DNA of 64,000 nucleotides from Octopus vulgaris. Taxonomy: Eukaryota. The translations under genes and the position numbers were made by a program. Under the pieces are notes generated by a model. That model did not search any database and was not told the DNA's origin. It saw only the letters and a program-made list of their open reading frames with translations. The stretch spans positions 29,140,001 to 29,204,000 of the forward strand of contig OX597820.1 in the NCBI GenBank assembly GCA_951406725.2. Reading direction: 5' to 3'. This document shows, piece after piece, positions 54,546 to 58,584 of the stretch. Numbering within the stretch: the stretch's first letter is position 1; every line of letters begins with the position of its first letter.

Positions 54546-56509
54546 TTGCTCATAACACATAATCTGCGTAAGTAACTCCCAATTCACTAACGCAGCCCTC
54601 ACAACACAGTTTCCACGCAGTCAACTAATTAATAGATAGATAGATAGATAGATAGATAGATAGATAGATAGATAGATAGATAGATAGATAGATAGATAGA
54701 TAGATAGATAGATAGATACTAAGTAATTAAGGGTTTAGCAACGAATTGCCTCACCAACACACCGAATTTAGAAATAGCAGTCAAAGAGATATAGCTATTC
54801 CTTCTACTAAAAGGGGGATCTCAGTAAAAACACAGCACTTAAAAGGCAAACACAGACAGGTAAGAAAGAAAGAATGAAATGACGGCAATCCATCATGCAA
54901 TTTTAAGTTACCTACGGACGTACGTTTCGAGATCAAGTTTTAGGGTATCATAAGAATTAGAAAATTCTACTTTACCCAGACTTCTTCTCTCATCGGCGCA
55001 AGATACTACAATTGTGAATAATTGTATATTAAATTTTGAGATACTAGAATGCGTCATCTCAACTCAGTGTCAGAGCGAGCCAAAGCATGACCAGTACCAC
55101 GAAATTCAAAGTTTGAATGAAAGTTTGTGTCACCAGCCCCCTTCCACCCGCGTGTAGCCAAGACAAAATGCTGTGGTCATTTACTGGGATAAAATATGGT
55201 TATCAGTAATAATAAAAGGGTGAAATTAATTAATTAGGGATAATTATCAATTACACCAAGTAGATTTCGGTATGTAAAAGCCCCATTCGAGGAAAATTTA
55301 AGTAATACTAAGTAATTAAGGGTTTAGCAACGAATTGCCTCACCAACACACCGAATTTAGAAATAGCAGTCAAAGAGATATAGCTATTCCTTCTACTAAA
55401 AGGGGGATCTCAGTAAAAACACAGCACTTAAAAGGCAAACACAGACAGGTAAGAAAGAAAGAATGAAAGAATGAAATGACGGCAATCCATCATGCAATTT
55501 TAAGTTACCTACGGACGTACGTTTCGAGATCAAGTTTTAGGGTATCATAAGAATTAGAAAATTCTACTTTACCCAGACTTCTTCTCTCATCGGCGCAGGA
55601 TACTACAATTGTGAATAATTGTATATTAAATTTTGAGATACTAGAATGCGTCATCTCAACTCAGTGTCAGAGCGAGCCAAAGCATGACCAGTACCACGAA
55701 ATTCAAAGTTTGAATGAAAGTTTGTGTCACCAGCCCCCTCCCATTCGAGGAAAATTTAGTAATTAAGGGTTTAGCAACGAATTGCCTCACCAACACACCG
55801 AATTTAGAAATAGCAGTCAAAGAGATATAGCTATTCCTTCTACTAAAAGGGGGATCTCAGTAAAAACACAGCACTTAAAAGGCAAACACAGACAGGTAAG
55901 AAAGAAAGAATGAAATGACGGCAATCCATCATGCAATTTTAAGTTACCTACGGACGTACGTTTCGAGATCAAGTTTTAGGGTATCATAAGAATTAGAAAA
56001 TTCTACTTTACCCAGACTTCTTCTCTCATCGGCGCAGGATACTACAATTGTGAATAATTGTATATTAAATTTTGAGATACTAGAATGCGTCATCTCAACT
56101 CAGTGTCAGAGCGAGCCAAAGCATGACCAGTACCACGAAATTCAAAGTTTGAATGAAAGTTTGTGTCACCAGCCCCCTTCCACCCGCGTGTAGCCAAGAC
56201 AAAATGCTGTGGTCATTTACTGGGATAAAATATGGTTATCAGTAATAATAAAAGGGTGAAATTAATTAATTAGGGATAATTATCAATTACACCCTTTTAT
56301 TATTACTGATAACCATATTTTATCCCAGTAAATGACCACAGCATTTTGTCTTGGCTACACGCGGGTGGAAGGGGGCTGGTGACACAAACTTTCATTCAAA
56401 CTTTGAATTTCGTGGTACTGGTCATGCTTTGGCTCGCTCTGACACTGAGTTGAGATGACGCATTCTAGTATCTCAAAATTTAATATACAATTATTCACAA
56501 TTGTAGTAT

Positions 56510-56601
56510 CCTGCGCCGATGAGAGAAGAAGTCTGGGTAAAGTAGAATTTTCTAATTCTTATGATACCCTAAAACTTGATCTCGAAACGTACGTCCGTAG
56601 G
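56510..56601 (+). ncRNA. Type I hammerhead with CCGAUGA core variant
   Basis: CCTGCG-CCGATGA-[GAGA...TCTC]-GAAA-CGTAC-GTC-CGTAGG. Confidence 0.75.
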
Positions 56602-57106
56602 TAACTTAAAATTGCATGATGGATTGCCGTCATTTCATTCTTTCATTCTTTCTTTCTTACCTGTCTGTGTTTGCCTTTTAAGTGCTGTGTTTTTACTGAG
56701 ATCCCCCTTTTAGTAGAAGGAATAGCTATATCTCTTTGACTGCTATTTCTAAATTCGGTGTGTTGGTGAGGCAATTCGTTGCTAAACCCTTAATTACTTA
56801 GTATTACTTAAATTTTCCTCGAATGGGGCTTTTACATACCGAAATCTACTTGGTGTAATTGATAATTATCCCTAATTAATTAATTTCACCCTTTTATTAT
56901 TACTGATAACCATATTTTATCCCAGTAAATGACCACAGCATTTTGTCTTGGCTACACGCGGGTGGAAGGGGGCTGGTGACACAAACTTTCATTCAAACTT
57001 TGAATTTCGTGGTACTGGTCATGCTTTGGCTCGCTCTGACACTGAGTTGAGATGACGCATTCTAGTATCTCAAAATTTAATATACAATTATTCACAATTG
57101 TAGTAT

Positions 57107-57198
57107 CCTGCGCCGATGAGAGAAGAAGTCTGGGTAAAGTAGAATTTTCTAATTCTTATGATACCCTAAAACTTGATCTCGAAACGTACGTCCGTAGG
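57107..57198 (+). ncRNA. Type I hammerhead with CCGAUGA core variant, tandem copy
   Basis: Identical to 56510-56601, 597 bp downstream. Confidence 0.75.
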
Positions 57199-58584
57199 TA
57201 ACTTAAAATTGCATGATGGATTGCCGTCATTTCATTCTTTCTTTCTTACCTGTCTGTGTTTGCCTTTTAAGTGCTGTGTTTTTACTGAGATCCCCCTTTT
57301 AGTAGAAGGAATAGCTATATCTCTTTGACTGCTATTTCTAAATTCGGTGTGTTGGTGAGGCAATTCGTTGCTAAACCCTTAATTACTTAGTATTACTTAA
57401 ATTTTCCTCGAATGGGGCTTTTACATACCGAAATCTACTTGGTATTATTACTGATAGATAGATAGATAGATAGATAGATAGATAGATAGACAGACAGACA
57501 GACAGACAGACAGACAGACAGACAGACAGATAGATAGATAGATAGATAGATAGATAGATAGATAGATAGATAGATAGATAGACAAACAGATAGATGGGTA
57601 GATAGATAGATAGATAGATAGATAGATAGATAGATAGATAGATAGATAGATAGATAGATAGATAGATAGATAGATCAAAAAAGTATACATGCAAACGTAG
57701 TAACATATATGTGTGTGTGTGTGTGTGTGTGAGCGAGAGAGAGAGAGAGAGGGAGAGAGAGAGCATATGGAGCATATAACGCAATAGATATTTACAAAAT
57801 TGCAAAATAAAAAATGGACAAAGTATTTGGGTAGGATGATTATTTTTGGATAATAAAAGAATGTACTGGTTGAACTCTTAGAACTAGAGTCATGTTCTAA
57901 GGGCTTTGGGGAAAAAACAAGCTGTGACAGAGTAATTTAGCATATATGGGGTGGCGGGGAATCAACCGTTAAACTTTGAATATTGGAGAAAATATGGAGA
58001 AAATGATATAAAAGAAATTGTTCTTGCGAAAGGAAAATAACAAAGGAATGTGCTGGGAAAGCGGAGGCGGGGGTGTATTGATTTAGGGAATGTGTTACAA
58101 GTAAACAGATATTGAAGAGAAATTTTTCAAAAACAATCAGGTTTTGTGTTTAATAGATAAACAAGGTCTCGGTGTCTTTAGAGAAATAGAAAATGGACGA
58201 GAAATGAATAACAATAACTTACTCTGGAGTTTAAGTAGATAGATAGATAAATAGATAAATAGTGAAGTAAGGTAGGAAGATAAATGGAAGTAAAAAGTAG
58301 ATCAGGGAGAATGAAAATTTGTTAAGATATGGTAAGTTCATAAAAGATCAAGATAACTCAGTAAAAATTCGAGAGAATAGTTGGAGAGATGATATAAATT
58401 GCGTTAAGGATGGCTGTAAATGTAGGAGTAATAAATATTGAGGAATCAAAGGAAATCGCCGAAAAAAAGTGGATGAGTTATTCGGTTAGTATTATGTATT
58501 TCAGAAAGAGGTGAGATAAAGAGAGAAATATGACTACGTATGATAGATATTTGCGAAGTACCAAAAATAAAGAGAAATAAACGT

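What the first reader, a model, noticed from the sequence alone, without database searches (positions are those of the whole stretch)
54716..57456. Locus B: 2.7-kb palindromic array of five hammerhead units, retrozyme-like
Seen: three units on the minus strand and two on the plus strand read outward from a 31-nt centre (CACC microhomology at 56290). The copies are nearly identical and sit inside (GATA)n, with no ORF. Successive GUC sites are 597 nt apart, so a read-through transcript could release a unit-length monomer. An 8-bp indel marks alternate units and the right arm mirrors units 1+2, suggesting copying from a multimeric template with switching. Known: metazoan non-LTR retrozymes yield circular RNAs. 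Inference: a cephalopod HHR retroelement, larger than typical, amplified by rolling reverse transcription.
Basis: partly seen in the sequence, partly recalled or inferred. Interest (0 to 1): 0.85.

Follow-up and report, generated by a model that had tools for sequence, protein, structure and literature searches.

The report
Hammerhead parasite of Penelope retrotransposons
This 2.7-kb mirror-image array is one of hundreds of recent copies of a non-coding, hammerhead-ribozyme-bearing repeat that likely borrows the enzyme of Penelope-like retrotransposons, and the copies are regular enough to test how such elements are copied.

Summary
The array is real: five type I hammerhead motifs in 589/597-nt non-coding units, three on the minus and two on the plus strand, tail-out, inside (GATA)n. 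It is not a special locus. The genome holds 715 exact matches to this hammerhead, plus 3,891 matches to a motif of sister families. Of 95 insertions sampled by their end, 67 have an inverted partner arm. The 3' ends fall at two sites about 100 nt apart (S and L), nearly always in (TA)n; 61 of 67 partner arms end at L and one at S. That is the Penelope-like element (PLE) 'tail' anatomy, which resident autonomous PLEs also show (8 of 8 printed inverted loci). Best reading: a non-autonomous PLE (non-LTR retrozyme), likely reverse-transcribed from both target strands. The alternating, mirrored 8-bp indel argues for a multimeric template rather than a monomer circle. All five ribozymes carry U4C, reported to slow cleavage, as does the youngest subfamily. 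A covarying helix encloses the S site across sister families. Not shown: cleavage, circular RNA, expression, or which PLE is the partner.

The parts
54632..54718 (.). left (GATA)n target microsatellite
   Evidence: TRF
54716..56293 (-). left arm, ending at the short (S) 3' site (unit position 493; unit = window 56312-56908). From outside: units 493-1 (short allele), 597-55 (long allele), microhomology jump to 516-1 (short allele, 11-nt deletion at 487-497), 597-541
54911..55002 (-). type I hammerhead motif 1 (U4C; one stem I C-G changed to U-G); predicted cut 54917|54916
55508..55599 (-). hammerhead motif 2 (U4C); predicted cut 55514|55513
55947..56038 (-). hammerhead motif 3 (U4C); predicted cut 55953|55952
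56259..56293 (.). inversion centre: 31 unmirrored nt plus the CACC shared by both arms; CACC/GGTG are the two base strands of the conserved tail hairpin (unit 541-544 with 576-579)
56290..57456 (+). right arm, ending at the long (L) 3' site (unit position 597): 576-597, a full long-allele unit, then 1-543 (short allele) and 585-597, skipping the tail hairpin (about 41 nt)
56510..56601 (+). hammerhead motif 4: 6-bp stem I, CCGAUGA, long stem II, GAAA, palindromic stem III ACGUACGU, GUC; predicted cut 56595|56596
56754..56908 (+). conserved end element: helix 56754-56763/56834-56843 enclosing the S site (56804-56813), tail hairpin 56852-56890, L site 56908; the part shared with sister families
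57107..57198 (+). hammerhead motif 5 (U4C); predicted cut 57192|57193
57453..57675 (.). right (GATA)n/(GACA)n target microsatellite
   Evidence: TRF
34125..35364 (.). sister insertion (locus A): about 87% like locus B, canonical CUGAUGA core on the plus arm, same tail-out S+L layout, in (TA)n

Best explanation
The array is one recent insertion of a non-coding, hammerhead-bearing tandem repeat family that is likely mobilised in trans by the reverse transcriptase/GIY-YIG enzyme of a Penelope-like element. Shown: the family, its two fixed 3' ends, the one-S-plus-one-L pairing of inverted arms, and microsatellite targets. Inferred steps: the enzyme nicks both strands of a (TA)n or (GATA)n tract; one nick primes at S and the other at L on a multi-unit RNA; each cDNA runs on through several units, mostly across the ribozyme site; the two cDNA ends join by short complementarity (here CACC/GGTG of the tail hairpin), which gives the tail-out palindrome. 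The template is likely an uncleaved or partly cleaved multimer, linear or circular. The weak ribozyme (U4C, 2-bp-plus stem III with a palindromic loop, predicted to act as a dimer) would favour multimers.
For: Family: 715 exact hammerhead matches, 0 for the reversed control; 2062 candidate places, 40 scored. Ends: 158 exact S-end/(TA)n junctions; of 95 examined, 67 inverted, partner end at L in 61, at S in 1, elsewhere in 5. Of 18 of 18 exact L-end junctions, 14 have a clear inverted partner, all ending at S, none at L (two loci are shared with the S sample). Resident PLEs: RVT_1 plus GIY-YIG ORFs, with 781-aa open frames at many places; three families end in (TA)n with or without a tail of about 38, 30 or 56 nt, and 8 of 8 printed inverted loci are S+L. 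Literature: tandem/inverted insertions, a one-sided tail and microsatellite bias are PLE traits (PMC8557442 and PMC3846280, passages); a purified PLE nicks and extends both strands, starts at two internal sites that bound the tail, and uses mainly unprocessed RNA (PMC11167929, main text). One template for both arms: 5' stops within 10 nt of each other in 16 of 67 loci against 3.1 in shuffles, 0 of 20000 as high; variants mirrored in register in B, L046, L050, L233. Structure: stem II pair G-C/A-U swaps 11:11 in 22 sequences; the S-enclosing helix has 2 compensatory pairs in 12 sequences of about 66-93% identity; arms stop at unit 286-300, just 3' of the cut site, 14 times against 3.9 expected.
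Against: No autonomous PLE sharing sequence with the unit was found in 120 GIY-YIG loci from four searches; the GIY-YIG search scored only 150 of 6136 candidates. The tail (about 95-105 nt) is longer than the 30-56 nt of the three resident families seen. Mirroring is not universal: L058, L231 and L272 differ or match out of register, so a second RNA or fold-back copying of the first cDNA also occurs or explains part of the data. Stem III does not form in any monomer fold computed. The covariation counts rest on related sequences and on one or two pairs. The stops near the ribozyme come from about 12 loci, peak 2-7 nt 3' of the cut, and lie in a locally palindromic AT-rich stretch, so they do not show cleavage.
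Confidence: 0.82

Rival explanations
1. One reading: ribozyme cleavage releases a 590-nt monomer that circularises, and reverse transcription rolls round this monomer circle to make the arrays.
For: Shown for coral, mussel and axolotl retrozymes that circles exist (PMC7229834, results and discussion). About 99 of 111 passes read through the cut site. 18 of 64 multi-unit loci carry an allele shared by all their units and absent from other sampled loci, which needs a single-unit bottleneck or conversion; L041 has four identical units. The unit folds well (z -5.7).
Against: In locus B the 8-bp indel alternates and is mirrored in both arms; period-2 or period-3 variants recur in L034, L046, L048 and L049, which a monomer circle cannot give. 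The youngest subfamily has U4C. Eight of nine Xenopus retrozyme dimers did not cleave in vitro (bioRxiv 10.64898/2026.07.22.740005). This rival concerns the template only and still needs a PLE enzyme.
Confidence: 0.25
2. The inverted arm is a fold-back (snap-back) DNA copy of the first cDNA, resolved at S or L by the endonuclease, rather than a second RNA-templated cDNA.
For: Many junctions are near-perfect hairpins (L231, L232, L234, L258); in L231 the L arm carries the allele of the innermost S-arm unit. Self-priming and endonuclease resolution were proposed before (PMC3846280, PMC8557442, passages).
Against: In B, L046, L050 and many short loci each arm holds sequence or alleles that the other lacks (the S arm is longer, the L arm has the tail), so neither is a copy of the other. 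It may account for the symmetric quarter of loci only.
Confidence: 0.2
3. A satellite or DNA-transposon-like repeat amplified at DNA level (unequal exchange, replication fold-back), with the hammerhead incidental.
For: Unequal exchange could explain the period-2/3 variants and the homogeneous arrays.
Against: Dispersal to many contigs, fixed 3' ends, ragged 5' ends, the S+L rule, and only 3 of 210 units with a broken core fit retrotransposition; the inverted arms differ in length and end at every locus.
Confidence: 0.05
4. The palindrome is a long-read chimera or assembly artefact.
For: No contig of the four runs laid spans this locus's own centre.
Against: Distinct flanks on the two sides, unequal arm ends, the same layout at dozens of loci, and arm-to-arm joints in contigs of run X15 (tables 5 and 5c; run type not on record).
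Confidence: 0.02

Closest known systems
Metazoan non-LTR retrozymes (Cervera and de la Pena 2020, PMC7229834; Li et al. 2026, bioRxiv 10.64898/2026.07.22.740005)
   Same: Non-coding tandem units each with a type I hammerhead, low GC, no LTR, PLEs present in the same genome; size inside the 51-972 bp range of Li 2026.
   Different: Circles and cleavage are shown there, not here. Here about 70% of sampled insertions are tail-out inverted with two fixed ends in microsatellites, which the sections read of those papers do not describe; the core is U4C in 367 of 715 matches.
Endonuclease-bearing Penelope-like elements (Neptune-type linker motif, clade name from PMC8557442); Poseidon of Anolis (PMC11167929)
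   Same: Tandem plus inverted insertions, tail on one arm, two start sites, AT-rich or microsatellite targets, hammerhead upstream of the 3' end.
   Different: No ORF; tail about 100 nt against 30-40 nt in print and 30-56 nt in resident families; no sequence match to a resident autonomous element found.
Non-autonomous Chlamys elements such as MRC1 (PMC8557442, passage)
   Same: Non-autonomous PLEs with multicopy head-to-tail insertions.
   Different: Those resemble their autonomous partners at the 3' end and the clade lacks canonical hammerheads.
Newt/axolotl satellite hammerheads with a weak palindromic stem III (PMC7229834)
   Same: Short stem III with a palindromic loop, reported to cleave better as dimers.
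   Different: 330-350-bp units; here a much longer stem II and a 2-nt loop III.

Membership tests
type I hammerhead ribozyme | core CUGANGA...GAAA...NUH with stems I and II | tested here: met
   Stems I and II pair with probability 0.76-1.0 in local, linear and circular folds; one compensatory pair. Core is the U4C variant in B and canonical in 348 of 715 matches.
type I hammerhead ribozyme | stem III formed | tested here: inconclusive
   Not formed in monomer folds; the palindrome ACGUACGU can pair between two copies, -9.8 kcal/mol.
type I hammerhead ribozyme | match to an Rfam hammerhead model | tested here: not met
   No hit at gathering score or E<=10; the long stem II is a likely cause (inference).
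type I hammerhead ribozyme | self-cleavage at GUC | not testable with these tools
   No assay; stops near the site are indirect.
non-LTR retrozyme | tandem non-coding units each with a type I hammerhead | tested here: met
non-LTR retrozyme | expressed as unit-length linear and circular RNA | tested here: inconclusive
   Only contigs of runs guessed to be RNA were available; they cannot show strand, ends or circles.
non-autonomous Penelope-like element | tandem plus tail-out inverted insertions, 5' truncated | tested here: met
   67 of 95
non-autonomous Penelope-like element | optional tail on one arm (two start sites) | tested here: met
   61 of 67 and 14 of 14; tail longer than typical
non-autonomous Penelope-like element | AT-rich microsatellite target shared with resident PLEs | tested here: met
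non-autonomous Penelope-like element | terminal sequence shared with an autonomous partner | tested here: inconclusive
   None in 120 GIY-YIG loci and 60 sister-family loci; sampling covered a small part of the candidates.
autonomous Penelope-like element | RT plus GIY-YIG ORF | tested here: not met
   Longest ATG ORF 49 aa; none adjacent in 39 loci.
plant LTR retrozyme | type III hammerhead in LTRs, PBS/PPT, 4-bp target duplication | tested here: not met
   Type I topology, tandem units, microsatellite junctions.

The most novel reading that the evidence does not exclude
A whole superfamily of cephalopod-type retrozymes (thousands of copies, 545-597-nt units) converges on one folded RNA element that loads a dimeric Penelope enzyme so that the two target strands are primed at two different sites, always one each; and its youngest branch spread after weakening its ribozyme (U4C), because slow cleavage yields dimer and trimer circles on which the enzyme rolls, leaving period-2 and period-3 arrays such as this one.
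Probability: 0.2. Interest if true: 0.75.

Novelty: new variant of a known kind. Interest (0 to 1): 0.48.

Why it matters
How Penelope-like elements build their tandem and inverted insertions, and whether retrozyme circles are real transposition intermediates, are open questions in the papers read. The link between animal retrozymes and PLEs has rested on co-occurrence and sequence likeness. This family gives insertion-level support at hundreds of young loci, a nearly strict rule (one S end and one L end per inverted insertion), a 150-nt candidate cis element with covariation, and intact resident enzymes to test against it. The locus itself is an ordinary member of that family.

Tried and rejected
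Rfam: no hammerhead; only hairpin-driven miRNA hits below threshold. Partner search: a recalled Pfam accession is not in the library; GIY-YIG, two PLE-fragment queries and two sister-family queries gave no element with both an ORF and the unit's ends; the hits to L077, L096, L133 and L139 are separate non-coding insertions in nearby (TA)n. RNA: no RNA holder listed; contigs of three runs guessed to be RNA hold parts of the unit at depth about 4-150, two span the cut site, but contigs cannot show strand, ends, level or circles, so this is no evidence either way. Ligation scar: unit position 285 varies in 4 events over 67 loci, about 1 expected at the CpG rate, no more than positions 392, 394 and 517; rejected. 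Within-array against nearest-locus distance was uninformative because short partial copies bias it (24 of 64). Earlier findings: none by sequence, words or place. Literature searches for octopus/cephalopod with hammerhead, retrozyme, Penelope or Neptune returned no description of this family; the giant squid paper lists 235 Rfam hammerhead hits without study (PMC6962438, passage). Repbase/Dfam and subscription papers were not searchable, and supplements of the bioRxiv preprint are closed, so a prior entry cannot be excluded.

Full report
Observation. The array at 54716-57456 is as described. I use window 56312-56908 as the unit (positions 1-597; predicted cut after 284). The left arm reads on the minus strand and holds three hammerhead motifs, the right arm two. 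The arms differ at 2 of 1028 nt. Cut sites are 597 nt apart on the right, and 597 and 439 nt apart on the left, where a G-run microhomology jump (unit 59 to 516) and an 11-nt deletion shorten one unit. The centre joins unit position 541 of the left arm to 576 of the right through CACC. The right end skips about 41 nt, the whole tail hairpin. A sister insertion lies at 34125-35364.

Ribozyme. The motif has a 6-bp stem I, CCGAUGA, a long stem II, GAAA, the palindrome ACGUACGU and GUC. Rfam does not detect it. Stems I and II are predicted with probability 0.76-1.0; stem III is not formed in any monomer fold but could pair between two copies. In 22 chosen subfamily sequences one stem II pair swaps G-C/A-U 11:11 and no pair of stems I-III proper is broken. 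The genome has 715 exact matches to the motif, 367 of them U4C. U4C is reported to lower activity in vitro yet allow viroid infectivity (PMC3088659, one passage). U4C loci look younger: median nearest-neighbour distance 0.26% (39 loci) against 1.12% (18 loci), with unequal samples. Three of 210 units have a broken core. Cleavage is not shown.

Family anatomy. The 39 best-hit loci showed 3' ends at two places, about 489-504 (S) and 546-601 (L), almost all in (TA)n (61 of 66 ends). To avoid best-hit bias I sampled by exact end. Of 158 S-end junctions, 100 were listed, 97 examined and 95 kept (two second copies within a locus dropped): 67 have an inverted partner arm, which ends at L in 61, at S in 1 and elsewhere in 5. 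Of 18 L-end junctions, all examined, 14 have a clear partner, always S-ended; one more has an 11-nt S stub by eye; three have none. Locus B follows the rule. Its palindrome is therefore the family norm, not an oddity; arm-to-arm joints also occur in contigs of run X15.

Comparison with resident PLEs. GIY-YIG matches are abundant (150 scored of 6136), many in 781-aa frames with RVT_1 and GIY-YIG. Three families end in (TA)n with or without a tail of about 38, 30 and 56 nt, and the 8 inverted loci whose two ends were printed are all S+L (that script hid identical repeats for one family). These are the traits given for PLEs in PMC8557442 and PMC3846280 (passages). PMC11167929 (abstract, main text, start of methods) shows a purified PLE nicking and extending both strands, starting at two internal sites that bound the tail, and using mostly unprocessed RNA; it saw no difference in start site between strands, whereas the genomic pairing here is nearly strict. 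The preprint 10.64898/2026.07.22.740005 (introduction to discussion; supplements closed) argues from co-occurrence and pLTR likeness that animal retrozymes are non-autonomous PLEs. I found no autonomous element sharing sequence with this unit.

Shared cis element. Sister families with 545-594-bp tandem units, their own hammerheads and the same layout give 3,891 exact matches to a motif from the S/tail region. The distant ones resemble the unit almost only there. In 12 sequences a 10-bp helix enclosing S keeps 96.7% of cells paired with two compensatory pairs; the tail hairpin keeps 93.1% with none. The sequences are related, so this is suggestive, not proof. I infer that this is what the borrowed enzyme recognises.

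Template. The 5' stops of the two arms coincide within 10 nt in 16 of 67 loci against 3.1 by shuffle. Stops are enriched at 286-300 (14 against 3.9, p 6e-5 before correction, about 12 loci), yet about 99 of 111 passes cross the cut site: the template is mostly continuous there, and the stops fit stalling at stem I as well as run-off at a cut end. Among 64 multi-unit loci, within-locus substitutions are 120 singletons and 15 shared ones in 9 loci. Shared ones are mirrored in register in L046, L050 and L233, as the indel is in B; out of register or arm-specific in L231, L272 and L058; and recur with period 2 or 3 in L034, L046, L048 and L049, imperfectly in some. So B and several others were copied from a mixed multimer, not a monomer circle. 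But 18 of 64 loci share a private allele across all units, which points to passage through a single unit at some stage. Multimeric circles, linear read-through RNA and later unequal exchange cannot be told apart here.

Mechanism. Likely: a resident PLE enzyme binds the folded end element, nicks both strands of the microsatellite, primes one cDNA at S and one at L on a multi-unit RNA, and the cDNA ends join through short complementarity; fold-back copying may account for the symmetric quarter of loci. Shown: family, ends, pairing rule, targets, structure conservation. Inferred: enzyme, priming, template form. Untested: cleavage, circles, expression.

Verdict. A new, young family of a known kind (non-LTR retrozyme behaving as a non-autonomous PLE), with a long tail, a weakened core and an unusually clean record of the insertion reaction. 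No description was found in four literature searches; repeat databases were not searchable. For PMC7229834 I read methods end, results and discussion.

Noticed in passing
G000-wide; e.g. L333, L346, L354, L376: Several sister families of tandem hammerhead units (545-594 bp), 3,891 motif matches, more abundant than this family; one family has a U3-A8 core like the main resident PLE's hammerhead (read by eye).
   Followed up: partly
L100-L116 (e.g. L103:2268-5968): An abundant, near-identical Neptune-type PLE with a 781-aa RT/GIY-YIG frame preceded by an overlapping 479-aa frame in full-length copies; possibly an intron or frameshift between them.
   Followed up: no
L170-L189: A second young PLE family with a C-terminal GIY-YIG, a long microsatellite-like 3' region and a 56-nt tail; clade not determined.
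   Followed up: partly
L117:6495-6550: The hammerhead-like motif of another resident PLE family also has a U4C core (CCGAAGA), read by eye.
   Followed up: no
window 42851-42954 (-): U6 snRNA match, 59.7 bits, with substitutions; likely a pseudogene.
   Followed up: no
window 50000-51450 (+), 53499-53756 (-), 36142-36555 (-): Broken LINE-like RT/endonuclease frames, a mariner-like fragment and an old PLE GIY-YIG fragment; names from recall of motifs, only the last was searched.
   Followed up: partly
L331:892-2598: A further tandem repeat (about 185-bp units) carrying a hammerhead-like core with the same stem III palindrome.
   Followed up: no
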